Sequence record: OR062943.1
Direction: 5' to 3' (one strand)
DNA length: 64,000 bases
DNA from: Escherichia phage 241Ecol014PP
Shown here piece after piece: positions 942 through 54,975 of this stretch. Each line of letters starts with the position of its first letter. Position 1 is the first letter of the stretch. The notes beneath the pieces are model-generated. The model was not told where the DNA came from. It did not search any database and was given only the letters and a program-made list of their open reading frames with translations. The translations under genes were made by a program, and so were the position numbers.

Positions 942-1658
942 ATGGCTACGCTTTATAGTGATATATTGATGGACCCACAGACAGGCGATTTGGCGATAGA
1001 CAAAGGTCTTGAGTTGATAGATTCAAACCAGGTAAGTCTGCGCCAGCGCTTGTGGATGAGGTTTAATACGTGGAAGGGGAGCTGGTACTTTGACGAACTG
1101 TTTGGCTTCCCTTATATGGACTTTCTCAGTAAGAAGGTCATGAAGACTGTTCTTGATAACAAGATCATGGAAGTGGCAAGACAAGAGCCGGATGTGCTAA
1201 ACATCATAAACTTCCAGTCTACCATGGACCGAAGATCGAGAACATACCAAGCGTTCTTTGAGGTTGTTACCAAAGAGAACGAGATTGTAAGGCTGGCTTT
1301 CGTAGGTCTTGATCAGTTCACCTACCCACAACCTGATTCTGGGACAACCTCTCTCTGTGATGATGAGGGTTGGATTAAGTGGGCTAATAAACTGTACTAC
1401 CTGATCAACTTCAGATTACCTAGAACCGGAGATGCCACATGGTGGAACCAGTATGCTGGTCCTGAGATGGAAAACCCGATCCCTGTAGGCTCTCTGTTGA
1501 CTCAGGATAAAGATCTGCTGATGACTGAGGCAGAACAAACCATTAACCGCAATACCTGGACGCTTGCTCCAGATGAGCGCGAATACTCTGGTGTTATTGC
1601 TACCTCCAATGATGAGGCTATTGCCAACCAGTCTGGTCGTGCTATTGATGTTAACTAA
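942..1658 (+). CDS. baseplate wedge-like protein (gp25/gpW-like or related)
   Basis: 238 aa; N-terminus ...SLRQRLWMRFNTWKGSWYFDELFGFPYMDF resembles baseplate wedge families; position after spike gene. Confidence 0.35.
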   Translation: MATLYSDILMDPQTGDLAIDKGLELIDSNQVSLRQRLWMRFNTWKGSWYFDELFGFPYMDFLSKKVMKTVLDNKIMEVARQEPDVLNIINFQSTMDRRSRTYQAFFEVVTKENEIVRLAFVGLDQFTYPQPDSGTTSLCDDEGWIKWANKLYYLINFRLPRTGDATWWNQYAGPEMENPIPVGSLLTQDKDLLMTEAEQTINRNTWTLAPDEREYSGVIATSNDEAIANQSGRAIDVN

Positions 1659-1667
1659 GGAGAAATC

Positions 1668-2336
1668 ATGGCTGTAGCTTATCCTACAATACCAATTCCA
1701 GATCTTGAAGATGCAGAAACAGTCCTGAGTGATGACTTCTTGGTTGTCAACCAGACTGATGGGACAAGAAAGGCTAAGATTGACGATGTTGTCAACGATC
1801 TTAGTATTACTAAGATAGTCTATTTCACAGAGGGTGGTTATCTTAAGAGCAAGAAGGACTTTGCTTATGACCCAGAGACTAAGCGCTACTACACGTGGAA
1901 CGGGGATTATCCTAAAATAATCCTACCAGACTCCACTGTAGAGGGTGCTGGGGGCGTGTCTGCAAATGCCTGGTCTGTTTTTGGTGAGCTTGCTGCAACT
2001 TCTTCTGGCAGAATAGTTGATTACGGATCTATCGGTGGTCAGCTTGATATGGATCTTGAAGTTGCGGATACCTTTAAGGTTCGACTAACTTCAAATACCA
2101 CAATCTCTTTTGAAAATCAAACAGAAGGTCTTGAAGGGGTGGAGAGAACTATAACCGTATGCATTACTCAGACCTCTGGCGGCAACAAAGTCTATTGGCC
2201 TGGTAATGTTAAATGGTCCTACGGAAGAGATCCTATCCTAACATTTACAGCTGGTGCAACAGATATTTTCAAGTTGGAAACCTACGACAACGGGTTAACT
2301 TGGTACGGGGCACTGATTATCGCAGGAGCTATCTAA
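1668..2336 (+). CDS. tail fibre/adaptor protein sharing N-terminal anchor domain with the 4971 fibre
   Basis: 222 aa; N-terminal ~80 aa (DDFLVVNQTDGTRKAKIDDVV...FTEGGYLK...DFAY) aligns with N-terminus of ORF 4971-8771. Confidence 0.45.
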   Translation: MAVAYPTIPIPDLEDAETVLSDDFLVVNQTDGTRKAKIDDVVNDLSITKIVYFTEGGYLKSKKDFAYDPETKRYYTWNGDYPKIILPDSTVEGAGGVSANAWSVFGELAATSSGRIVDYGSIGGQLDMDLEVADTFKVRLTSNTTISFENQTEGLEGVERTITVCITQTSGGNKVYWPGNVKWSYGRDPILTFTAGATDIFKLETYDNGLTWYGALIIAGAI

Positions 2337-2337
2337 G

Positions 2338-4935
2338 ATGCGTATTCAACATAACATTGATAACGTATTTCAGATGATTGAGGGGCACAGGAAGTGCCTC
2401 GATAACAACACAGGTATTACCAACACCCCTACACAAAATAAGCTAGTAAACCCTGATGGTCTTATAGCTGCAGGGTGGGCAGGTAATAAGATAAATAATG
2501 ATTGGGCAATGCATGAGTCCCAAGCTGTGTTGATTCTGGGATACATTGAAGCATACAGGGCATCGAAAAGCGATTTCTATCTGGATAGGGCAAAAGATGC
2601 TTGGGAAGCTTACAATAGTCATCTTCTTGGTGCATATGCTGTAGAAAGTAAAATGCAAAGATTGTCCCACTACCCTCTATCCACAGACGGGGTTCCATCA
2701 CATGGTGGGTTTAAAGATGTGGTGGTGTCTTTTACCAATGGTAGAGGAAAAATCCCAGCTGGATCTCCGACATGGGGGGAATACCTGGACAAGGCATTCC
2801 AAGCGTATAACGGTGTGTTAGGAAGAAACACTGTAGACTCTGATGTTTACGGTGGCACAGATGCTAACCCAGATTGGACAACATCCGGATTAAGTTGGTG
2901 GGTTGAGTGGTACATAGCATGGGATGGTAACCGCTATTGGGCTAACGGTAGCATAGCCGACAGTGGTCATACGTCTGTAGAGTTCGGCACAATCCAATTA
3001 CAAGATAAGGGTGTTACAGGCAGCCACAAGGTGACCTATTGTGTAAGATTACCTCAAGAGCAGGGTGGATCGGTGATACCTGCAGGATCCCCTGTAATTG
3101 TAAATCCTATAAACGTGGTTGCAGATAATCAAGCCCCGGAGTTGGACGGGGAAGAGATGTGGTGTGACGCTTGTTATCAACTCTACACCTTGACAGGTGA
3201 GGAAAAGTATTACACCGCGTTTGAACAGTCTTACAACAAGTTGCTTAATTTCAGTGATATAAACGCCTACGACAAACTGTTTAGAAAGACCACGTTGATT
3301 AAGGCACCGTTCACAGATGGTACTTGTCTTGTTGCAGGAACAGTTCCTGTCATGAGCAGGGACAGTGACGGGTATATCAATTTTAGAATGAACGCACGCC
3401 AGCCTTGCGAAATAATTCAAAAAGGGACTACATACAAAATAGGCAGAGATGCTGAAATTGTTATGAATTTCGGAGGAGAAGGTGTTCTGTTCCAGCCGCA
3501 TTTCATCCTTAATGATGGCAACAATAACAAAAAACAGTACAGGATAGGTGTCCCTTTTGGAGGTGCAGAGGTAACAGAAATAGTTGCCAAGGTTACTGAT
3601 TTCGTAGAGGTAGTTGGTAAAGACGGTAATCCGTATCTCTTACCTAAAGAGGAAAACATTGCCGTAAGCGGTGGTGCTAGTGTTAGTATGCAGTATGATA
3701 CCGACATTTACAACCACTCTGACAACTTCACCCGTTGTAATATAGCAAGAGGTAAAGTAACTTTCAATTTTGGAAGAGAGATTTCTTTAAACTCAGTAAC
3801 TTATCGATCAGATGATGAGATGGTAAGGGTCAAATTTCTTGACAAAGACAGGTGGTTATGGTATGCTGATCTATATGCCACTAATGGACAATGGATAACA
3901 GAAACTCTTACTCTAGGAGATTTCAAACTAGATCCGACACAGCCTCATCACACCGAAGAAGAGATTAAACCTTTCTTTGCTAATCCTAAGGGGCTCACCT
4001 CTGTAGATTTCAGCCTAAGCGACAGGCAGATAGGTAATGGCTTGTTTGATCTGTATTGCGTCAACACACTGCCGCAATTTTATATTGCAGATAGGGATGC
4101 TTATCTAATCTGGTTTAGCGTATGGATGGCAAGCAAGACAGAATCAACCGCTAAGGTTGGCGATTGCTATGTCAGAAACTACAAGCAAGGTGCATACAGG
4201 CACACACCCGGTGTGTTCCCTGCCGGAAAGGTGATAGATAAGGAAAACTATCTCTTGGAGGAAAGGCCAAATTGGCCCTACCCTGGCATGCAATACCCAG
4301 CAGTCTACTGCATGGGTGCAGAAAACATAGATCGCCATAGATTGTCAAATACAATAGGCTTTCTGTATGACGCTCAAGTCTGGTATAACAATACATTTAA
4401 GACAGAAGGTCCAGTTGCCTCGCGTTATGTATGGCAGAGAGGCAATGAAGGGTTGACTGGTTGGTGGGAGATGGTAGATAACTCTAAACTACAGTCAAGA
4501 TCTTTTGTTGCTGCGTGCCGCACAATATATGAGCTCAAGAAACATAAAGAACCTGTTGATGAAAGACTATTCCTGTTCTGCCAGAAATGGGCATGGTTCC
4601 TCAACAGATTCCAGTCATCTCATTCAGGAAATCTGCCTACAGACTTTAACACCTCTGGGGGATACTCTTATCAAGACAGAGGGGACAGGATGTGGGTGGT
4701 AGGTGAATGGCTTGCAGGTTGCTGCTGGCTAGGTCTGTGCGGGTATTCAGAGACAATACCTCAAATAGATATTGTTGTAGAAGCCTGTGTGAAGCTACTG
4801 CAAAAGCACCACTTCATTAATGGGGATAATATTTTAAACGGCTGCTGGGCAGTTTCTGATCCGGTTGGCTATCACTCTGGCGAAATCCTTCGCGGTCTGG
4901 GCCTTTATGCTCAATACCGTGGATTGTACCTTTAA
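2338..4935 (+). CDS. large tail-associated protein, possible glycoside hydrolase/depolymerase
   Basis: 865 aa, Trp/Tyr-rich; ATG 2 nt after upstream stop; enzymatic assignment speculative. Confidence 0.35.
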   Translation: MRIQHNIDNVFQMIEGHRKCLDNNTGITNTPTQNKLVNPDGLIAAGWAGNKINNDWAMHESQAVLILGYIEAYRASKSDFYLDRAKDAWEAYNSHLLGAYAVESKMQRLSHYPLSTDGVPSHGGFKDVVVSFTNGRGKIPAGSPTWGEYLDKAFQAYNGVLGRNTVDSDVYGGTDANPDWTTSGLSWWVEWYIAWDGNRYWANGSIADSGHTSVEFGTIQLQDKGVTGSHKVTYCVRLPQEQGGSVIPAGSPVIVNPINVVADNQAPELDGEEMWCDACYQLYTLTGEEKYYTAFEQSYNKLLNFSDINAYDKLFRKTTLIKAPFTDGTCLVAGTVPVMSRDSDGYINFRMNARQPCEIIQKGTTYKIGRDAEIVMNFGGEGVLFQPHFILNDGNNNKKQYRIGVPFGGAEVTEIVAKVTDFVEVVGKDGNPYLLPKEENIAVSGGASVSMQYDTDIYNHSDNFTRCNIARGKVTFNFGREISLNSVTYRSDDEMVRVKFLDKDRWLWYADLYATNGQWITETLTLGDFKLDPTQPHHTEEEIKPFFANPKGLTSVDFSLSDRQIGNGLFDLYCVNTLPQFYIADRDAYLIWFSVWMASKTESTAKVGDCYVRNYKQGAYRHTPGVFPAGKVIDKENYLLEERPNWPYPGMQYPAVYCMGAENIDRHRLSNTIGFLYDAQVWYNNTFKTEGPVASRYVWQRGNEGLTGWWEMVDNSKLQSRSFVAACRTIYELKKHKEPVDERLFLFCQKWAWFLNRFQSSHSGNLPTDFNTSGGYSYQDRGDRMWVVGEWLAGCCWLGLCGYSETIPQIDIVVEACVKLLQKHHFINGDNILNGCWAVSDPVGYHSGEILRGLGLYAQYRGLYL

Positions 4936-4970: not shown

Positions 4971-7900
4971 ATGGCTGATATTAAAGTTGTCAGAATTGAA
5001 TCTCTTCCTGCCACTACCGCAGTGACAGAGGATGATTACCTGGTTGTTCAGCAACCAGACCTGACCCGTCGTGTAAAAATTGGCGATGTTGTCCATGTGG
5101 ATGGGACTGTTTCTCATGTAATCTCCTTTAAGGAAGGTGGTAAGTTAAACGGCCCAATGGATTTTGCCTACTTCGAAGAGGAAGACCTCTACCTGCGTTG
5201 GAAAGGCGAATTTCCCCACACTGTTCCTGCACTATCTTCACCGTACTCCGATGGTGGGATTACTGACGCTGCATGGATGGTATATACAGATCCGTCCTTA
5301 AGGGAGGAGCTGGAATCTACCATTGGCGCATCTATGATCATGACAGCCGAAGGGCAGTCTGTCCAGGATGTAATGGATGTTACTGTTCAGACAGCTAACG
5401 ATGCTAAAGCACTTGCACAGCGTGTAGATTTTGGTACAGTGCACACCGTAGGCGATGTTATTCACCTTGATAACTTTGTTGGCCCTGCAGTTATTGAAGA
5501 GGGAAGAACCACCAACTACCCTTCTGTAGCAGCTGGTGAAAAATTTCTGAACGGTGTGGTATCTCGCCGTGATACTACAACTGTTGATGGTATTTTCCGT
5601 GGCGCTACCACCGGAGCCATGTACACCATTGCAGTAACCAACGGTGTAGCAACAACGAAAAGAATAGCACTTCGTGATGAATTTAAACGCCTAGAGGCAA
5701 ACAACCCAACAAGAACAGTTATCCGTGCTGGAGATGATTTAAATACGGCAGGGTACTTGCAGCTTGATGCAACAGGCCGTTGGGGTATGTGGAACCAACA
5801 AACAGCTTCGTGGCAACCTCTTGCTATAGAGCAAGGCGGCACAGGGGCTAGAGATGCCGCTGGAGTCCGTATCAATATCGGTGCTTTCTATAAGCAACGT
5901 GCAGCCCTTGAGCCAAATTTCCATATCAATAACTTGACTGGTAATCAGGATGGTGTATACTACCAGCCGATGACTGCTTATGCAACTGAGGCAAATGGTT
6001 ACCCTGCAGGTTCTGGTGCTGGTCACTTGATTGTTTGGCAGAACAATGCTAACGGCGGTACAGGTTGTCGTCAGGAATACTACCCATTCTCTAACGTAGA
6101 TGTTTGGTATTTGAGAACCTATCAGGCCAACACAAATCAGTGGACTGCATGGCAGCCGATGGTTAGACCTCGTAACGATAATACCTTTAGATCGCACATC
6201 GGTCTTGGGCCTAGAAATACCCCTACCTTCGGGCACATTTACCTGTCTCAAAGTTCTGCTGATGTTAAGTCAGCCTCGGGTATTGTTAACGGGGACAAAT
6301 ACAGCGCTGACGGTGTCCTTGAGCATGGATATAGGATCTATTCTGAGGTAAGAAACGACAATAAGGCTTGGTTGACAATCCACCTGCACAAAGGTGCAAA
6401 AGGATCTGAAACTCATAAATATTTAGGTTTCCGCGAAGACGGCGTATTAGACTGCCCTAAATATATGCAGGTTGGGGATCTTACTGGTCAGCTGACAAAC
6501 TGGGGACTTGGAGAATGGATTCGTAGTTCAGGAGCAGAAAGAGGCTTCTGGGGGTCCAAGAAAGCCGCCAAGATGGTTATCTGGGATGGTGGGATGGACG
6601 AATCCGGTAACGGCACTCTGGAATGGGGTGTTTATAACAACCGGAAGGCCAAGTGGGAACCTCTACCTCAAGCCGCAGGTGGCACTGGGGCTACAACTTT
6701 AGCAGATGCTCAGAATCTGTTCAAAGTTCCTATAGCAGCAGGTGTAAAAGACTTCTTAACACTGCCAAGAACCGCAGGGATGGAAGATGGGAAATACTAC
6801 CCAATCATCGTTAGAACAGATCCGTATTACTCCCCTGCGACAGGTGCAGATATTACTATAGTCACCAGGTCTTCATATGGAGATGACCCTATGAACTGTG
6901 CCACCCTGCAGTGTCACTATAGAACTGGCGGCTGGTCGGACAGGGGAGACTCTTTCTACGGGGTAGTAAATTTCTACCAGAATGAAAAAGCACTTCTTGG
7001 GATGGTTGCTCCAACAAGGGGTAAACAAGAGTATGTTGCTTTCTATGCAGAGGCTCGTGCTTTCCCTGTCAGCATATACGCAAGTAGAAATGTTGTCGAA
7101 GTGTTTACCAGAGAGCAAGATTATCAAGTCGGCTCTGTAACAAACAATCAGGATGGGGTTAAGTTCGTTGCACCTCTTCAATCAGCAGATTTGAATCTTG
7201 CTATTCTTGGAGATAACAACACCAATACCAGACCTATTGTTGACTTCAAAGGTACTTCAGGATTCTACACTGGTGGCGGCACACAGTGGCACTATATAGG
7301 TTCTGCTGAACGCTATGCTGTGATGAGCAAAATGAATATGCCAAAAGTCGAGCTATGGGCAGACGGTCTTGACTATTTGTGCTACGGCAGTCCTAGAAAG
7401 GCGTTATTCTCTAATGCAGGATTCCAGTGTGCATCGGAAGGAACAGAGGATCTGATCAACAACACCTTTACCTCTAAATGTGGTAATGGTGCAAGACTGC
7501 AAGGCCAGGCAGAGTTCAGATCTACTCCGGAAGCTGGTCAAGTTATCGTTCGCGATGTTGTAGGTACAGCTCATAAGTTCTACAATTTCAACAAAGACGG
7601 CACATTTTTCCCTCCTGGGGGCTATGTTTGCCAGACAGGTGCTGACTGGAACAATCAGTTTGGTAATACAAACCCCTCCAAGATAATGGCTGGCAATGTC
7701 AACGGGCCGGAAGGTTCGATGGTTGTTGGCGGGGTGTCTGTAGCATTTTCTGGGAACTATGCTTTCCAAATGGCTGGCCGCCTTGATCAGTTATACACCA
7801 GATCTATCGAGGGTGGTAACCATAGAGCGTGGAACAAGGTCATACAACACAGAGGGCAAGGTCTGGGGATTAATGACCTTAACGACTACAAAGGGGATAG

Positions 7901-50284: not shown

Positions 50285-53200
50285 ATGAGCATGTATAGCT
50301 TCGATTTTGAGGCCTCCGGGCTTTTGGAAGACCCAGATCTTTATTACCACTGCGGCCTGTTTAAAGAGCTGAATAAGAACCGTTTTATGCTGTTCCTCCC
50401 TCTAAATGACCGCACACACTACTCCGAGGAGGATATAGAGAAGGCTAAGAACTTCATTCTGGCAAAGAAAACTCTTTATAAAGATTTTGAAGTTCGCATA
50501 GCAGATTTTTCGGAGTTGGAAGGTTGGCTTACAGGCAATTCCGACTGGTCACCAACAGCTTTGAACTGCCATAACTGCTACAGTTATGACTTTATGCTGA
50601 TGGAGAAATTATCCGGTATTCATTTTGATATGTTCCGTGATCCTAAATGCATGGGTACTATCAACGATCACCAGGTTAACCTGTTCGATACGTTGGCGAT
50701 GAGCCGAATCTTGTGGCCTGATCGCCCTTTACCAAAAGGTTGTCCGGACTCTGTATTCAACCCGGTTACTAAGAAAATGCAGCCTGTTGGTGCCCACGGC
50801 CTTATGGCATGGGGCTACGCCCTTGGTAACCAGAAAGTTCAAATTGATGACTGGCGTGATCTTCCGTTGTGGAAGTATGTGGATCGTGTATTCGAGGACG
50901 TTATCATCCAGGAGCTGCTCTGGAAAGAGCTGGTAGCGGAATCAAAAGGTGTATTCTACGGCAAATCTGACATGCAGAACTTTATGTACGATCCTGCCAA
51001 AGAGAAGCCGAAAGGGTTCAAGAAGATCACCTGGAAGAACGCATTACGCCGGGGTATGCTGCAGCACTTCCTGATGGAGCTGCAGGCCCGTCAGGGTGTA
51101 TACTTCGACATAGATGGAGCTATTGCTTTACGTGACCGTTGCGATGCGTGGATGAAAGAGATCGCTGATCGTGTTGAACCTCAACTTCCTTTAAAAGAGT
51201 TGTCAATGTCTCAGCGGCCCAAGTTCCCTGAAAAGCCGTTTAACCAAGATGGGACAATCTCCAATAATGGTTGGAAATGGTTAAAAGATAAGCTTGGCTA
51301 TCCTGTGGACATGAGTGCTTTAGAGTTCAAAGCCCCGCCTAAGCGAGCATTTACCTCCACAGGAGATGTCAGCAAGATGGGGATAAAATGGTGTGAAGAG
51401 ATGGGCTGCAAAGACCCCGATAAGATGGCTGATTTCTTGAGAGGCTATATTAAGGGCACTTCCACACCACACCCTTTACCTAAAGAGCTGATGGATCAGG
51501 CGATAAGTGATCTACAGCAGAAGCGAATGCCGGACTGCAAGATACCTATGAAAATCAGCAATCAGGACGACATTAAGCGATACCTGATCAGTGCTGGTTG
51601 GCTTCCGACAATGTGGAGAACTAAGGATGTAACTAAAGACAGCAAGAAGAAAGCTCTACCTGATGCAGATGTTGATGCACGAGTATATGCATATATGGAC
51701 GAGCTTTTAGAGTCAGAGTATTGTGATCTGATTATCAACTTCTGGAACAAAACTGATGCTAAGTTCCAGACAACCGTGCACAAGTTCCGAAGCTTTCCTA
51801 ACTCCGAAAGGATTAAAAAGGAAGTGTTCGGGAAAATACGTAGAAAAGCCAGAGCACTTATTACTTCTCCGCAGCTGAAAGATACGTTTGGACACCTATG
51901 CCCAAATCTTGAAAAATTGAACGGAGAGATGGCTAAAGATATCGTCTTGTGGTTATCATTGCGAAACCGCAGATCGGTCCTTGATCCAATCAAGGAGGAT
52001 AAGGTTGATACTGGTCTTCTTAATCACCCACGTTTGAAGATTGACCATAAGCTTCCTGCTAAAAGTTCTGGGTTAACAAACACTTCCCGACAGAAACACA
52101 GTATTTGTGCAAACATGCCTAAACCATCTCCTAAAGTGGTTATGGGTAAAGAGATGCGTAGTCTGTGGGGTGTTCCTCCAGGATACTTTGAGATCGGTAT
52201 TGACGGGTCCAACTTAGAGCAGCTTATCGGGGCTTGGGGTGCCTTTGAGTTCGACAACGGCCTGTATTATGATGTTGTAAGTAACGGCGATGCACACTGT
52301 TATTCAGGAGATACACAAATTCTCACGGAGAAAGGGTGGGTGAGGTTTGAAGATCTTGATCCGGGAACACAAGTGTTCCAGTACGATCACAACACCTCGT
52401 CGATGAACCTTGTTACTCCATTAAATTACGTTAAGCGTAGTTATTGTGGGGATATGTATCATTTCCACAACAGCAGTGTGGATTTTATGGTTACAGATCA
52501 ACACAGGATGCTGACCGTGGATCACAGAAGCAATAAATTGTTTGAAGATTTGGCAAAAGACCTGAAAGCAGGTAAAGGGTCTAATTCAGGAAGAAGGTTT
52601 ATCCATGCGGCAGAGTTTTATGGGAATACAACCTTATCTCCTGCCCAGATTAATTTGCTTATTGCTATTCACGATGATGGGCACTTGCATACAAATAAGG
52701 ACGGCAGCATCGTGTGCAGGATTCAGGTCGGGAAGGGCAGAAAAGTTGCAACGCTTTTAGATACTTTTTCTGCTCTAAGCCTTAGTTATGTAGAGCAGAG
52801 CGGGAAAACCACAAAAGGGGGCTTACTGGCGAGAAGGTTCCAATTCCACGTTCCGTCCTGGGTATTTGAGTTTTTGGACAGCAATAAGGATTTCACCTAC
52901 AACCTGATGGACCTTGATAAAGAATCTAAAAACCTGTTTATAGCTTCTTTATCTAACTGGGACGGATGGGTATCTTCCGAAGGTGGAAAAGTTGCCTACT
53001 ACTCTCAGTCCGAGTGCAGGAAGAAATCTGTAGAGGTTGTGTCTGCGCTGGCTACTCAGTGTGGTTTACGGAATAATACGGTGGCGATTCACAAAAAAGG
53101 TCGTTCCGTACAGCACAGAATCACGATTGGTAGCAAACAGAGAGCAGGGTTGCTGACACTATCTAAAGAGTCTGTCGAGGTGAGTGGTTCTTTGGTTTAT

Positions 53201-53677
53201 TGCGTTACCGTCCCTTCTGGAGCAATCATTGTGAGAAGGAATGGTAAAGTGGCAGTGTGCGGTAACTGTAATAACGCCAAAGCTTACTCTTCTGTAGCAG
53301 GCAAGGAGATTTCCCGTAACGATGGTAAGCCTGTCACGTATGGGGTTATGTACGGGGCACAAAAAGATAAAGTTGCAGATATGCTGGATATCTCCCCAGA
53401 GTTGGGGCAAAGGGTGATCGATGCACTTTGGGATGCCAACCCCGGTCTTAAGGGGCGCAAAGAGGATCTGGAGAAATTCTGGGAAGCAACAGGTAAGAAG
53501 TTTATCTACTCTTTTGATGGTCATGCTATCTGGACTCGATCTAAACACTCTTTACTTAATGCATACCAACAAAATGGTGGTGCATCGCTGTGTGACTTAG
53601 TTGGGATACTCATGCACCACCAAATGGTGAAGCGTGGGTGGTACGATGAAGGTGTTCGTCGTATTATTTATTACCAT
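50285..53677 (+). CDS. family A (T7-like) DNA polymerase, exon 1 (contains an in-frame intein)
   Basis: RBS AAGGAGAA; exo motif FDFEASG; motif A region IGIDGSNLEQL; after intein motif B KPVTYGVMYGA; ORF stops at 53683 before motif C, implying an intron. Confidence 0.8.
52298..53266 (+). mobile_element. intein (about 323 aa) with LAGLIDADG-type homing endonuclease domain, inserted between polymerase motifs A and B
   Basis: Begins CYSGDTQIL (block A) with MVTDQHRMLTVDH (block B, TxxH); ends ...VAVCGN followed by +1 Cys (CNNAKAY); internal LLIAIHDDGH and LFIASLSNWDGW motifs; host junction NGDAH/CNNAK parallels T7 NGDIHTKNQ. Confidence 0.7.
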
Positions 53678-53953
53678 AAATAACATTGTGGCTTCATAGA
53701 GTAATCTATGTCGAATAACCTCTTTAACTGCGGGAAGCCTAAACCTTATGGCAAGGTAATCCGCAACGAAGCGCTCAAAAGAGCGAACGCTCAGAGGCCA
53801 TTCCGAAAGGAAGTAGACCAGCAAGTGCGGTCGAAATGGGAGGATTCCTGTGGTTGCTTATCATAGGAATATGAGATGGTCCGATCCTACGTGAAAACGT
53901 ATGGCTATGCACGTAATGGTGCGGGGTAGCTTAACGACCTACCTGAACTATTG
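53678..53953 (+). mobile_element. ORF-less group I intron (276 nt) splitting the DNA polymerase gene just before motif C
   Basis: Exon 1 ends ...YYH (last nt U at 53677), exon 2 begins DEYQIQV at 53954 giving HDE motif C; intron last nt G at 53953; intron GUGG (53688-53691) can pair with exon CCAU (P1 with U.G); in-frame stops inside. Confidence 0.6.
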
Positions 53954-54307
53954 GATGAGTACCAAATTCAAGTCCCTGACACGCCTAAGTATAAGACTGT
54001 GTACACCTTCGACACAATTGAAGAACTGGAAGCATTTAAGGCAGAGCAGGAGGCCAAACTTCATGTGTTTGACGGTCATAAGTACAAAAAGGCACGCAAG
54101 GATGAGAACGGAAACGAAGTGGTTGACAGAGACGGAAACACGGTGTACGATCCTATCCTGAACGATGACGGAAAGCTTGAACTTATCTGGAGCCCTGTGG
54201 GTGAAATGGTGGTGCATTGCTTCTGGCAAGCTTCTAAAATGATGGGCGTCCCGTTCCAGATCACAGGTGAATACTTGTGTGGGGCTAATTGGGGTAGTTG
54301 CCATTGA
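53954..54307 (+). CDS. DNA polymerase exon 2 (motif C to C-terminal His)
   Basis: DEYQIQV...GEYLCGANWGSCH parallels T7 polymerase C-terminus HDEIQV...WAICH from memory. Confidence 0.7.
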   Translation, partial: DEYQIQVPDTPKYKTVYTFDTIEELEAFKAEQEAKLHVFDGHKYKKARKDENGNEVVDRDGNTVYDPILNDDGKLELIWSPVGEMVVHCFWQASKMMGVPFQITGEYLCGANWGSCH

Positions 54308-54327
54308 TCTGATAAGAGATATTTGCT

Positions 54328-54975
54328 ATGGAAGAATGGAGAAAACTGGTTGGCAGGGAGGCCAACTATGAAGTTAGCAGTAAAGGAAGGATTAAAAGGC
54401 TGTCTTACCTGAGGAAGTACAGTAACCAAACAGGTAAAGTTACTTTCAAAGCTGTCCCTGACAGGATTTTAAAAGGTAGCGTAGACAGTAGCGGTTACAT
54501 TCAAGTAAATGTAGATGGAAGATCGGAATTGCTTCACAGGTTAATTGCCGAGACCTTTCTAGAGCCTCCTTCAAAAGAGCTTGTAGAGGAATGTAAGGCA
54601 GCAGGGCTGGACTATGTGCCGATCAATCATAAAGACCATAACCGCCTAAACAATGCTGCTGACAACCTTGAATGGGCCTCGCCTTCAAAAAATGCACAAG
54701 ATGTGGACTACGACTACCATAAAACAAGAGGGGAAAGTTCATACTGTGCAAAACTTAAAGAGCGAGATGTTGACGAAATATTAAAGCTTTCCAAAACAGG
54801 TATGTCACAGCAAGCTATAGCAGATCTTTTCGGTGTTAATCAGATAACCATTTCCAATATCTTGACAGGTAGGAGTTGGGCATGGTACACTGGGATACCT
54901 AAAACCGCAAGGTGTAAAAACAAAAGGGGGAGATCCCCGAAAAGCATGTCTGAGCAAAATTTCTCTGTAAGCTGA
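54328..54975 (+). CDS. free-standing HNH homing endonuclease (NUMOD4-like N-terminus + HNH + C-terminal HTH)
   Basis: 215 aa; EEWRKLVGREANYEVSSKGRIKR; INHKDHNRLNNAADNLEWASPSKN; C-terminal MSQQAIADLFGVNQITISNIL. Confidence 0.75.
   Translation: MEEWRKLVGREANYEVSSKGRIKRLSYLRKYSNQTGKVTFKAVPDRILKGSVDSSGYIQVNVDGRSELLHRLIAETFLEPPSKELVEECKAAGLDYVPINHKDHNRLNNAADNLEWASPSKNAQDVDYDYHKTRGESSYCAKLKERDVDEILKLSKTGMSQQAIADLFGVNQITISNILTGRSWAWYTGIPKTARCKNKRGRSPKSMSEQNFSVS

What the first reader, a model, noticed from the sequence alone, without database searches (positions are those of the whole stretch)
52298..53266. Intein in the polymerase with non-canonical C-terminal GN instead of HN
The insert starts with Cys (CYSGDTQIL) and contains a TxxH block and two LAGLIDADG-like motifs, but ends ...VAVCGN followed by +1 Cys rather than the usual His-Asn. 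Inteins lacking the penultimate His are known but uncommon, and the C-terminal boundary is therefore uncertain by a few residues.
Basis: partly seen in the sequence, partly recalled or inferred. Interest (0 to 1): 0.5.

Follow-up and report, generated by a model that had tools for sequence, protein, structure and literature searches.

The report
Ordinary phage intein, glycine-asparagine end explained
The insert in this rV5-like coliphage DNA polymerase is a real self-splicing intein with a built-in homing endonuclease, and its odd Gly-Asn ending is the normal ending of a large, already studied group of phage inteins.

Summary
Window 52298-53266 is an in-frame 969-nt (323-codon) insert in the family A DNA polymerase of a Vequintavirus (rV5-like coliphage). 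It is absent from rV5 and from 127 of 133 related genomes. It sits after the active-site His of the GDxH motif (T7 His506|Thr507).

It is a bifunctional intein. An AlphaFold model (pLDDT 93) matches PI-SceI and the TliVMA intein. Full-length relatives at 25-40% identity sit inside many unrelated phage proteins.

The Gly-Asn end is not an anomaly. Among 251 non-redundant relatives, Gly is penultimate in 244, Cys is at block F position 4 in 246, and Cys1 is present in 250. Two clade members have published biochemistry. The Bethlehem RDF intein splices fully, and changing its Gly to His slows it. The AceL NrdHF intein (PDB 6ZGQ) is killed by the same change, and its block B Arg takes over the His role. 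The window intein has that Arg (R70).

The C-terminal boundary is therefore exact. The intein brings its own Cys+1, replacing Gln, together with a recoded flank.

This is a new, unannotated member of a known kind, of modest interest. In passing: the same gene also carries a group I intron and is followed by a free-standing HNH endonuclease gene.

The parts
50285..52297 (+). N-extein: DNA polymerase A exon 1 up to ...SNGDAH (motif A IDGSNLEQL lies just upstream)
   Evidence: ORF. Colinear with rV5. The spliced protein aligns to T7 DNA polymerase, NGDAH|C matching T7 NGDIH|T.
52298..53266 (+). Intein, 323 aa (Cys1...Asn323): HINT splicing domain with an inserted LAGLIDADG endonuclease
   Evidence: Exactly 969 nt absent from rV5. 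Full-length homologues in unrelated host proteins. AF2 pLDDT 93.4. Foldseek hits to TliVMA, PI-SceI and PI-PfuI inteins at E 1e-16 to 1e-12.
52298..52336 (+). Block A, CYSGDTQILTEKG, with Cys1 (52298-52300)
   Evidence: Cys1 is present in 250 of 251 relatives.
52493..52510 (+). Block B core, T66-D-Q-H69-R70-M71 (B:7, B:10, B:11, B:12)
   Evidence: Thr 238/251, His 251/251, Arg 130/251, Met 106/251. Same [S/T]xxHRM pattern as AceL NrdHF S65/H68/R69/M70 (PMC7891396).
52613..53149 (+). LAGLIDADG homing endonuclease domain (about residues 106-284). Motif helices end at D127-G128 (52676-52681) and D222-G223 (52961-52966).
   Evidence: Secondary structure. Foldseek hits to I-DmoI and I-SceI. Acidic residue conserved: D/E 234/251 and D 235/251. 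dN/dS 0.078. Pfam LAGLIDADG_3 hits in 5 of 16 relatives. Domain limits are approximate.
53192..53233 (+). Block F, LVYCVTVPSGAIIV, with Cys302 at F:4 (53201-53203) where standard inteins have Asp
   Evidence: Cys in 246 of 251 relatives. This is the position of the essential C124 of AceL NrdHF (PMC7891396).
53246..53266 (+). Block G, KVAVCGN: Cys321 (G:5), Gly322 (G:6, penultimate), Asn323 (G:7)
   Evidence: Gly in 244/251. The terminal dipeptide is GN in 147/165 and 96/104 relatives, and HN in only 1 of each set.
53267..53293 (+). Cys+1 (53267-53269) and the recoded start of the C-extein (CNNAKAYSS, versus QNNAEAYTK in empty alleles)
   Evidence: All 6 intein-bearing alleles share TGT AAT AAC GCC AAA GCT TAC TCT TCT (EcoM-WM differs at 3 bases of this tract). 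All 3 empty Vequintavirus alleles read have CAA AAC AAT GCT GAG GCA TAT ACA AAA (EmilHeitz differs at 1 base).
53267..53677 (+). C-extein, rest of polymerase exon 1 (motif B RNDGKPVTYGVMYG ... IIYYH)
53678..53953 (+). Group I intron without an ORF (276 nt), splitting motif C YYH|DE. Not part of the intein, but needed to make the polymerase.
   Evidence: Rfam RF00028, 64.7 bits (gathering 50), at 53668-53903. Exact ends come from the intron-less NHEP1 allele: CAT|AAATAA...CTATTG|GATGAG.
53954..54307 (+). Polymerase exon 2 (DEYQIQV...GANWGSCH, stop)

Best explanation
Window 52298-53266 encodes a splicing-competent, mobile intein in the family A DNA polymerase of a Vequintavirus. The polymerase is made as a 1248-aa precursor, after the group I intron at 53678-53953 has been removed from the mRNA. 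The 323-aa intein folds into a HINT domain carrying a LAGLIDADG endonuclease. It excises itself and joins His671 to Cys+1, giving a 925-aa polymerase with the junction ...SNGDAH-CNNAK.

Likely chemistry (inferred): Cys1 makes the N-terminal thioester with help from T66 and H69. The N-extein is passed to Cys+1. Asn323 cyclises to release the intein. In this clade the cyclisation is not helped by a penultimate His. The residue there is Gly322, which leaves room for the block B arginine (R70) to contact the C-terminal scissile carbonyl, as seen in the crystal structure of the clade member AceL NrdHF. The nearly invariant block F Cys302 sits where standard inteins have Asp. It is also required, either as an assisting residue or as a relay nucleophile.

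The freed intein is a LAGLIDADG homing endonuclease. In mixed infections it cuts intein-less polymerase alleles at ...GACGCACAC|CAAAACAATGCT.... Repair copies in the intein together with about 10 nt upstream and 27 nt downstream of flank. That flank supplies the obligatory Cys+1 (Gln in empty alleles) and destroys the target site.

Shown here: boundaries, fold, family membership, conservation, purifying selection and the signature of horizontal spread. Inferred: splicing, the order of the chemical steps, endonuclease activity and its target.
For: Exact 969-nt presence/absence polymorphism. The insert follows the active-site His of GDxH, and the spliced sequence aligns without a gap to T7 DNA polymerase at E 1.2e-13. 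The Pfam DNA_pol_A score rises from 17.6 bits over 57 residues to 28.3 bits over 203 residues once the intein and intron are removed, though it stays below the 34.3-bit cut-off. Full-length relatives occur in at least 15 unrelated host proteins, with 2205 representatives at E<=1e-10. AF2 model pLDDT 93.4, pTM 0.92. Foldseek: TliVMA, PI-SceI, PhoVMA and PI-PfuI at E 3e-16 to 2e-12; AceL NrdHF TM 0.84 normalised to the target; I-DmoI and I-SceI for the middle domain. Clade signature over 251 relatives: C1 250, T(B:7) 238, H(B:10) 251, C(F:4) 246, G(G:6) 244. The ends are GN or GQ followed by C, S or T. The Bethlehem RDF intein (VWCLRVPNG...TGN|S) matches the clade HMM at 1e-38; it splices to completion, and G316H accumulates precursor (PMC5050341). 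AceL NrdHF is the best PDB sequence match (E 3.4e-12); G145H abolishes activity through a modelled clash with R69, R69A slows splicing, and C124A/S is dead (PMC7891396). dN/dS is 0.08 in both the splicing and endonuclease domains against the EcoM-WM copy. The intein is 99.3-99.6% identical among phages whose flanking polymerase differs by 2.4-9.3% (Fisher p 1e-5 to 2e-16). A recoded flank is shared by all intein-bearing alleles. Six independently isolated, propagating phages carry it in their polymerase gene.
Against: No experiment exists on this intein. Curated profiles fall below their cut-offs on this sequence alone: Pfam Hint_2 23.7 versus 28.4 bits, TIGR01445 14.3 versus 24.5, and no LAGLIDADG hit. 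Arg at B:11 is present in only 130 of 251 clade members (Lys in 29), so it cannot be the universal substitute for the missing His. The AceL NrdHF paper itself says the activation of Asn is not fully explained. The roles of Cys1 and Cys302 cannot be separated by sequence analysis.
Confidence: 0.88

Rival explanations
1. The intein splices by a class 3 or hybrid route. Block F Cys302, not Cys1, attacks the N-terminal scissile bond, or receives the acyl group from Cys1 as an obligatory relay, and forms a block F branched thioester before transfer to Cys+1.
For: Cys at F:4 is 98% conserved in the clade, where class 1 inteins normally have Asp (PMC2807308). AceL NrdHF, the closest solved relative, has Ala1 and was shown to use C124 (F:4) as its first nucleophile. 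The full-length clade member in Corynebacterium phage Darwin RNR starts with Ala1 and still ends ISGN|C. G:5 is Cys, Ser or Thr in 224 of 251 relatives; class 3 inteins have Thr there.
Against: Cys1 is conserved in 250 of 251 clade members, which would not be expected if it were dispensable. Class 3 inteins vary at position 1. The Trp of the WCT triplet is absent (Met71). Cys+1 is common in the clade, whereas classic class 3 inteins almost always have Ser or Thr at +1 (PMC2807308). Kelley et al. treat the Bethlehem RDF relative as class 1.
Confidence: 0.25
2. The splicing domain is active, but the LAGLIDADG domain is no longer a working endonuclease, so the intein is now inherited only vertically or by ordinary recombination.
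For: Pfam LAGLIDADG models do not hit this sequence at E<=0.01. Many inteins carry decayed endonucleases. D126-D127 departs from the commoner A-D at that position.
Against: Both catalytic acidic residues are present. dN/dS of the endonuclease domain is 0.078, as low as that of the splicing domain. Near-identical inteins sit in diverged polymerase backgrounds, and all carriers share a co-converted flank. The predicted I-DmoI-like fold has high confidence.
Confidence: 0.12
3. The insert is a permanent, non-splicing domain insertion or a dead intein, and the polymerase works with it in place or is non-functional.
For: The textbook penultimate His and the block F His are absent. No curated intein model passes its threshold.
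Against: All other catalytic positions are intact and under purifying selection. The insert separates the active-site His of GDxH from the rest of the fingers subdomain, between motifs A and B. Clade members with the same Gly-Asn end splice efficiently in experiments (PMC5050341, PMC7891396). Carriers are viable isolates.
Confidence: 0.02
4. The true C-terminal splice junction lies a few residues away from Asn323|Cys+1 (for example after the second Asn of CGNCNN).
For: The local sequence GNCNN offers more than one Asn.
Against: The insert relative to empty alleles is exactly 323 codons, with NNA conserved on the extein side. All 16 aligned relatives and more than 250 database relatives end at the aligned G-N/Q followed by C, S or T. 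A junction after CN would put Asn at +1, which is not a nucleophile.
Confidence: 0.01

Closest known systems
Mycobacteriophage Bethlehem RDF (metallophosphoesterase, gp51/52) intein (Kelley et al. 2016, PMC5050341)
   Same: Same clade (A1 profile E 1e-38). Shares Cys1, block F V-W/Y-C-x-x-V-P-x-G, the end TGN|S, an in-frame LAGLIDADG domain and a size of about 317 aa. It shows experimentally that a penultimate-Gly phage intein splices to completion and that Gly-to-His slows it.
   Different: Different host protein and insertion site. Only about 25% identity. Ser rather than Cys at +1. Actinophage rather than coliphage.
AceL NrdHF split intein, PDB 6ZGQ (Hoffmann et al. 2020, PMC7891396)
   Same: Best solved-structure match by sequence profile (E 3.4e-12), and a close fold match for the splicing domain (TM 0.84 normalised to the target). 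Shares [S/T]xxH-R-M in block B, Cys at F:4, Pro 4 residues after it, and Gly-Asn at the end. It explains why His is excluded at G:6.
   Different: AceL NrdHF is naturally split, has no LAGLIDADG domain (a GIY-YIG gene lies between the halves), and starts with Ala1, so it is obligately class 3. It has Thr at G:5, where the window intein has Cys.
PI-SceI (Sce VMA), TliVMA and PI-PfuI bifunctional inteins
   Same: Same overall architecture: a HINT domain interrupted by a two-motif LAGLIDADG endonuclease. These are the top Foldseek hits (E 3e-16 to 2e-12, TM 0.6-0.7 normalised to the query).
   Different: These are canonical class 1 inteins with His-Asn ends and Asp at F:4 (recalled from the literature, not checked here). 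They are larger (about 430-450 residues in the matched chains). Sequence identity is 11-13%.
Class 3 (WCT) inteins, e.g. MP-Be DnaB (Tori et al. 2010, PMC2807308)
   Same: Cys at block F position 4. Phage association. A hydroxyl or thiol residue at G:5.
   Different: Class 3 inteins are defined by having no N-terminal nucleophile, and they have Trp at B:12 and usually His at G:6. The window intein has Cys1, Met71 and Gly322.
Allelic inteins at the GDxH|[C/S/T]xNA site of other family A polymerases (metagenomic proteins P0116, P0121, P0123, P0130, P0173, P0222, P0010)
   Same: Same insertion point after the GDxH histidine, same clade, same GN end. P0116 is 88% identical and shares the CNNAKAY C-extein start.
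   Different: Apart from P0115 and P0116, identity is 32-40% and the polymerase backgrounds differ. +1 is Thr, Ser or Cys.

Membership tests
Intein (HINT protein-splicing element) | In-frame insertion in a conserved host protein, absent from orthologues | tested here: met
   Exactly 969 nt absent from rV5, EduardKellenberger and EmilHeitz, and from 127 of 133 records.
Intein (HINT protein-splicing element) | Nucleophile at position 1, block B TxxH, C-terminal Asn (or Gln/Asp), and Cys/Ser/Thr at +1 | tested here: met
   C1, T66/H69, N323 and C+1. These columns are 95-100% conserved in 251 relatives.
Intein (HINT protein-splicing element) | Penultimate His (typical but not defining) | tested here: not met
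   Gly322, and Gly in 244 of 251 clade members. Published clade members splice without it (PMC5050341, PMC7891396).
Intein (HINT protein-splicing element) | HINT fold | tested here: met
   AF2 pLDDT 93.4. Foldseek probability 1.00 to solved inteins. The family profile hits the AceL NrdHF, Spl DnaX, TliVMA and Mja KlbA inteins. Curated Pfam and NCBIfam models are below threshold on the single sequence.
Intein (HINT protein-splicing element) | Protein splicing actually occurs | not testable with these tools
   Inferred from viable carrier phages, dN/dS 0.087 in the splicing domain, and experiments on two clade members.
LAGLIDADG homing endonuclease (two-motif, intein-borne) | Two LAGLIDADG helices, each ending in an acidic residue followed by Gly, in an alpha-beta-beta-alpha-beta-beta-alpha fold | tested here: met
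   Helices at intein residues 115-127 and 208-221, followed by D127-G128 and D222-G223. Foldseek hits to I-DmoI and I-SceI at E about 1e-6. LAGLIDADG_3 hits in 5 of 16 relatives.
LAGLIDADG homing endonuclease (two-motif, intein-borne) | Site-specific cleavage of the empty allele, and homing | not testable with these tools
   Indirect only: the intein is 4-15 times less diverged than its flanks, all carriers share a recoded flank, and dN/dS is 0.078.
Class 1 intein | Cys/Ser at position 1 initiates splicing by an N-S/O acyl shift | tested here: inconclusive
   Cys1 is present and 99.6% conserved. Whether it is the initiating nucleophile cannot be decided in silico. The typical Asp at F:4 is replaced by Cys.
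Class 3 intein | No N-terminal nucleophile | tested here: not met
   Cys1 is present. By the definitions in PMC2807308 and PMC7891396 this excludes formal membership.
Class 3 intein | WCT triplet: Trp B:12, Cys F:4, Thr G:5 | tested here: not met
   The window has Met71, Cys302 and Cys321, so only the Cys matches. The variant M-C-T is known in AceL NrdHF.
Cys1 / Cys F:4 / Gly-Asn phage intein clade (Bethlehem RDF, AceL NrdHF, Alice NT, Darwin RNR inteins) | Profile match over the full length, plus the signature C1...TxxH...VYCVTVPxG...VRRNG...[C/S/T]GN|[C/S/T] | tested here: met
   The alignment of 16 phage inteins shows every signature element. 114 and 2205 database relatives. Census.
Group I intron (neighbouring element, not the finding) | Rfam RF00028 match above gathering score; exon U before the 5' splice site; terminal intron G; precise absence from an intron-less allele | tested here: met
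   64.7 bits against a gathering score of 50. CAU|...UUG| and a 276-nt gap relative to NHEP1. Self-splicing was not tested.

The most novel reading that the evidence does not exclude
This intein belongs to a very large clade (over 2000 representative sequences) that keeps both Cys1 and a block F Cys, together with an obligatory penultimate Gly. The clade may splice by a mechanism that is neither class 1 nor class 3. One possibility is a three-thiol relay (Cys1 to Cys F:4 to Cys/Ser/Thr+1). Another is two redundant initiation routes. In either case the rare Ala1 members (AceL NrdHF, Darwin RNR) would be the step by which class 3 chemistry arises from class 1 inteins in phages. A cultivable coliphage polymerase intein would then be a convenient in vivo system for testing this.
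Probability: 0.2. Interest if true: 0.55.

Novelty: new member of a known kind. Interest (0 to 1): 0.3.

Why it matters
The six GenBank records that carry this insert call the gene only 'DNA polymerase' or 'hypothetical protein', so the intein is not annotated. Curated Hint and intein models miss it at their thresholds, which suggests the whole Gly-Asn clade is under-annotated in phage genomes. For the phage, active polymerase requires RNA splicing of a group I intron and protein splicing of the intein in the same gene. That makes the gene a compact, genetically tractable E. coli example of stacked selfish elements in an essential gene. The alleles show clear signs of recent homing: a near-identical intein in diverged backgrounds, and a co-converted flank that installs the required Cys+1. 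For intein chemistry, this is a natural Cys1-bearing, full-length relative of the AceL NrdHF split intein, useful for asking what the conserved block F Cys does when Cys1 is present. None of this overturns current understanding.

Tried and rejected
1. A word-indexed search of the 5.8-billion-protein set with the single intein sequence returned nothing at E<=1e-5. This was a prefilter limitation. The same database gave 114 hits when queried with a 16-sequence profile.

2. Pfam and NCBIfam scans of the window sequence gave only sub-threshold Hint_2 and intein_Nterm hits and no LAGLIDADG hit. They could not settle the question on their own.

3. I built a 'mini-intein' profile (endonuclease domain removed) to force a residue-by-residue alignment of blocks F and G to 6ZGQ. 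HMMER aligned only blocks A and B. The equivalence of Cys302/Gly322/Asn323 with C124/G145/N146 therefore rests on the paper's motif numbering and the fold match, not on a printed alignment.

4. The predicted-model coordinates are not exposed, so active-site distances could not be measured.

5. The paper by Tori and Perler (2011) on class 3 inteins that carry Ser1 or Cys1 is not in the held library. What I recall of it is treated as a lead only.

6. Considered and rejected: a shifted C-terminal boundary, a permanent domain insertion, and reverse-strand ORFs overlapping the insert (for example 53159-53548 on the minus strand). That ORF is one of many short antisense ORFs in the mechanical ORF list and was not tested further.
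Full report
**What is there.**
The window is from a Vequintavirus, an rV5-like E. coli myophage. The region 50285-54400 matches 133 phage records, most at 95-99% identity. ORF 50285-53683 (+) is a family A DNA polymerase, downstream of a primase-helicase gene.

Translating 52298-53266 gives 323 sense codons, CYSGDTQIL...VAVCGN, followed by Cys. BLASTN against phage rV5 shows that the polymerase is colinear on both sides. The window stretch 52298-53293 (996 nt) faces only 27 nt in rV5, so the window has a net extra 969 nt, which is 323 codons. The junctions read ...SNGDAH|[insert]|CNNAKAY in the window and ...SNGDAH-QNNAEAY in rV5. Only 6 of the 133 related records carry the insert.

**It is an intein with a homing endonuclease.**
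- *Relatives in unrelated hosts.* tblastn finds relatives covering all 323 residues at 25-30% identity. They sit inside ribonucleotide reductase (RNR) alpha and beta subunits, nicotinamide phosphoribosyltransferase (NAPRT), PhoH, thymidylate synthase, RtcB and a nucleotidyltransferase of unrelated phages. Finding the same element in unrelated host proteins is the hallmark of an intein. Some of those records already say 'intein' or 'Hint'.
- *Database size of the family.* A 16-sequence profile finds 114 proteins at E<=1e-10 in the word-indexed set. A full phmmer scan finds 2205 cluster representatives at E<=1e-10.
- *Structure.* An AlphaFold2 model of the intein with five extein residues on each side has mean pLDDT 93.4 and pTM 0.92. 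Its best Foldseek matches in the PDB are the bifunctional inteins TliVMA, PI-SceI, PhoVMA and PI-PfuI (E 3e-16 to 2e-12). Next come the AceL NrdHF intein for the splicing domain (TM 0.84 normalised to the target) and I-DmoI and I-SceI for the middle domain.
- *Endonuclease motifs.* The two LAGLIDADG helices end in D127-G128 and D222-G223.
- *Why annotation missed it.* Curated profiles alone would not have found it. Pfam Hint_2 scores 23.7 bits against a 28.4-bit cut-off, and TIGR01445 scores 14.3 against 24.5. This probably explains why no GenBank record annotates the intein.

**Where it sits in the enzyme.**
After removing the intein and the intron in silico, the 925-aa product aligns to T7 DNA polymerase (E 1.2e-13) straight through both junctions. 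NGDAH|C corresponds to T7 NGDIH|T, and YYH|DE corresponds to the T7 motif C WVHDE. The intein therefore follows a conserved active-site histidine between motifs A and B, a typical intein location. Other family A polymerases in the databases carry clade members at the same GDxH|[C/S/T]xNA point.

**The Gly-Asn end.**
All 15 phage relatives that I aligned end in G-N followed by Cys, Ser or Thr. The terminal dipeptide counts are:

| Set | Ends scored | GN | GQ | HN |
|---|---|---|---|---|
| Profile hits | 104 | 96 | 5 | 1 |
| Full-length inteins in the best 150 representatives | 165 | 147 | 12 | 1 |

A column census over 251 relatives gives:

| Position | Residue | Count of 251 |
|---|---|---|
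| 1 | Cys | 250 |
| B:7 | Thr | 238 |
| B:10 | His | 251 |
| B:11 | Arg | 130 (Lys in 29 more) |
| B:12 | Met | 106 |
| F:4 | Cys | 246 |
| G:6 | Gly | 244 |

The missing penultimate His is thus a defining trait of a large clade, not a peculiarity of this copy, and the aligned family fixes the C-terminal boundary.

**Published experiments on clade members.**
- *Bethlehem RDF intein.* The mycobacteriophage Bethlehem RDF/phosphoesterase intein (C95...TGN411|S, block F VWCLRVPNG) matches my clade HMM at 1e-38. Kelley et al. showed that it splices to completion and that changing the penultimate Gly316 to His causes precursor to accumulate. They note that the penultimate His is poorly conserved in phage inteins (PMC5050341).
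- *AceL NrdHF intein.* The best solved-structure match by sequence is AceL NrdHF (6ZGQ, E 3.4e-12). Hoffmann et al. describe S65/H68/R69/M70 in block B, C124 at F:4, a P128-G129 kink in block F, and T144-G145-N146 at the end. G145H abolishes activity, with modelling suggesting a clash with R69. R69 lies 2.5 Å from the C-scissile carbonyl, and R69A slows splicing. C124A/S is dead. Because that intein starts with Ala1, it uses C124 as its first nucleophile, which is the class 3 mechanism (PMC7891396).
- *The window intein.* It has T66/H69/R70/M71, C302, P306-S-G308 and C321-G322-N323. This is the same set of residues, plus a Cys1.

**Mechanism and its uncertainty.**
The most likely course is ordinary intein chemistry started by Cys1, with R70 rather than a penultimate His assisting Asn323 cyclisation, and with Cys302 in the place of the usual block F Asp.

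What Cys302 does when Cys1 is present is open. Both residues are nearly invariant, so both appear to be needed. Ala1 members exist: AceL NrdHF, and the Darwin RNR intein. This shows that the block F Cys in this scaffold can reach the N-scissile bond. By the published definitions (no N-terminal nucleophile, WCT triplet) the window intein is not a class 3 intein. I give a class 3-like or relay route about 0.25.

Arg at B:11 occurs in only about half of the clade, so it cannot be the whole explanation for the missing His.

**Evidence that the element is alive and mobile.**
- *Purifying selection.* Against the most divergent Vequintavirus copy (EcoM-WM, 88% nucleotide and 92% amino-acid identity), dN/dS is 0.087 in the splicing domain and 0.078 in the endonuclease domain.
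- *Separate history from the host gene.* In the same comparison, dS of the intein (0.54) greatly exceeds dS of the flanking polymerase (0.06 upstream, 0.21 downstream), so the intein and the host gene have different histories.
- *Recent spread.* The intein is 99.3-99.6% identical among JEP1, Mangalyan, YP-6, NHEP1 and the window, while their flanking polymerase sequences differ by 2.4-9.3% (Fisher p 1e-5 to 2e-16). YP-6, NHEP1 and Mangalyan were isolated in China, India and the USA.
- *Recoded flank.* All intein-bearing alleles share a recoded flank, GGC GAT GCA CAC|...|TGT AAT AAC GCC AAA GCT TAC TCT TCT, with EcoM-WM differing at 3 bases. All three intein-less Vequintavirus alleles read have GGA/GGG GAC GCA CAC|CAA AAC AAT GCT GAG GCA TAT ACA AAA, with EmilHeitz differing at 1 base. 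Several of the changes are synonymous. The non-synonymous ones include Gln to Cys at +1, which the intein needs.
- *Native +1 residue elsewhere.* Other Vequintavirinae genera have Ala or Ser at that position, and T7 has Thr.

This is what co-conversion during homing would produce, and it would also protect carriers from the endonuclease. Endonuclease activity and its target are nevertheless inferred, not shown.

**Surroundings.**
The ORF stops at 53683 only because a group I intron interrupts motif C. Rfam RF00028 scores 64.7 bits. The intron-less but intein-bearing phage NHEP1 fixes the intron at 53678-53953 (276 nt, CAU|...UUG|).

Exon 2 runs 53954-54307. Its last 12 nt and the next gene, 54328-54975 (NUMOD4 + HNH_3 + HTH, a free-standing HNH endonuclease), lie in a 677-nt insertion absent from rV5, Mangalyan, YP-6 and NHEP1. 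Mangalyan instead has an HNH gene inside the intron.

A related Certrevirus is reported to have two spliced introns and a free-standing HNH gene at its polymerase, and inteins in other genes (PMC7344957). I found no paper in the held library that describes a polymerase intein in Vequintavirus.

**Verdict.**
The finding is real and correctly interpreted. The feature that made it look unusual is the norm for a well-populated, experimentally sampled clade of phage inteins, and the boundary is exact. It is a new, unannotated member of a known kind. Residual interest lies in the clade's double-cysteine signature and in the clear homing footprint in a tractable coliphage.

Noticed in passing
window 53678-53953 (+): A group I intron without an ORF (276 nt) splits polymerase motif C between His and Asp (IIYYH|DEYQ), which is why the polymerase ORF appears to end at 53683. 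Rfam RF00028 scores 64.7 bits. The exact ends come from comparison with the intron-less phage NHEP1. The intron follows a U and ends in G.
   Followed up: partly
window 54296-54972, gene 54328-54975 (+): A 677-nt insertion relative to rV5, Mangalyan, YP-6 and NHEP1 carries a free-standing HNH endonuclease gene (NUMOD4 + HNH_3 + HTH). It also supplies the last four codons and the stop of the polymerase. This is a third selfish element at the same locus.
   Followed up: partly
L003 (phage Mangalyan) 4954-5602, CDS 5035-5541: In Mangalyan the polymerase intron is longer and contains an annotated HNH homing endonuclease ORF. The window, rV5 and YP-6 have the short ORF-less form, and JEP1 has yet another length. 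The intron is therefore polymorphic in content across the genus.
   Followed up: no
window 53267-53293 and 52288-52297, versus L001, L022, L023: A recoded tract from about -10 to +27 around the intein site is shared by all intein-bearing alleles and absent from all intein-less ones. It contains five synonymous changes plus Q->C, E->K, T->S and K->S. This fits co-conversion and target-site immunity. The metagenomic protein P0116, whose polymerase background differs, has the same CNNAKAY start and may resemble the donor lineage.
   Followed up: partly
L015 (Corynebacterium phage Darwin RNR) 301-1287: A full-length, endonuclease-containing member of the same intein clade begins with Ala instead of Cys (AFSGDTELL...VISGN|C). 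It would be a cis-splicing counterpart of the Ala1 split intein AceL NrdHF.
   Followed up: no
proteins P0119, P0127, P0135, P0171, P0179: Several metagenomic proteins carry two or three inteins of this same Gly-Asn clade in one polypeptide, in some cases separated by only 2-7 extein residues (for example P0119...FSGN|SE|CYDKETQIL...).
   Followed up: no
L001 (rV5 RefSeq NC_011041) 1501-3931: The rV5 reference annotates the polymerase from locus position 1604, with a separate 27-aa ORF upstream. The window-versus-rV5 alignment of this stretch contains a single 1-nt indel (2013 versus 2014 nt). This suggests a frameshift or sequencing error in the old reference rather than a real difference.
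   Followed up: no
hits H9-H14, H17-H18, H23: Sixteen records named 'Campylobacter phage' (host C. jejuni) are 96-97% identical to this E. coli Vequintavirus polymerase. They look like rV5-like coliphages that were mislabelled or carried over as contaminants.
   Followed up: no
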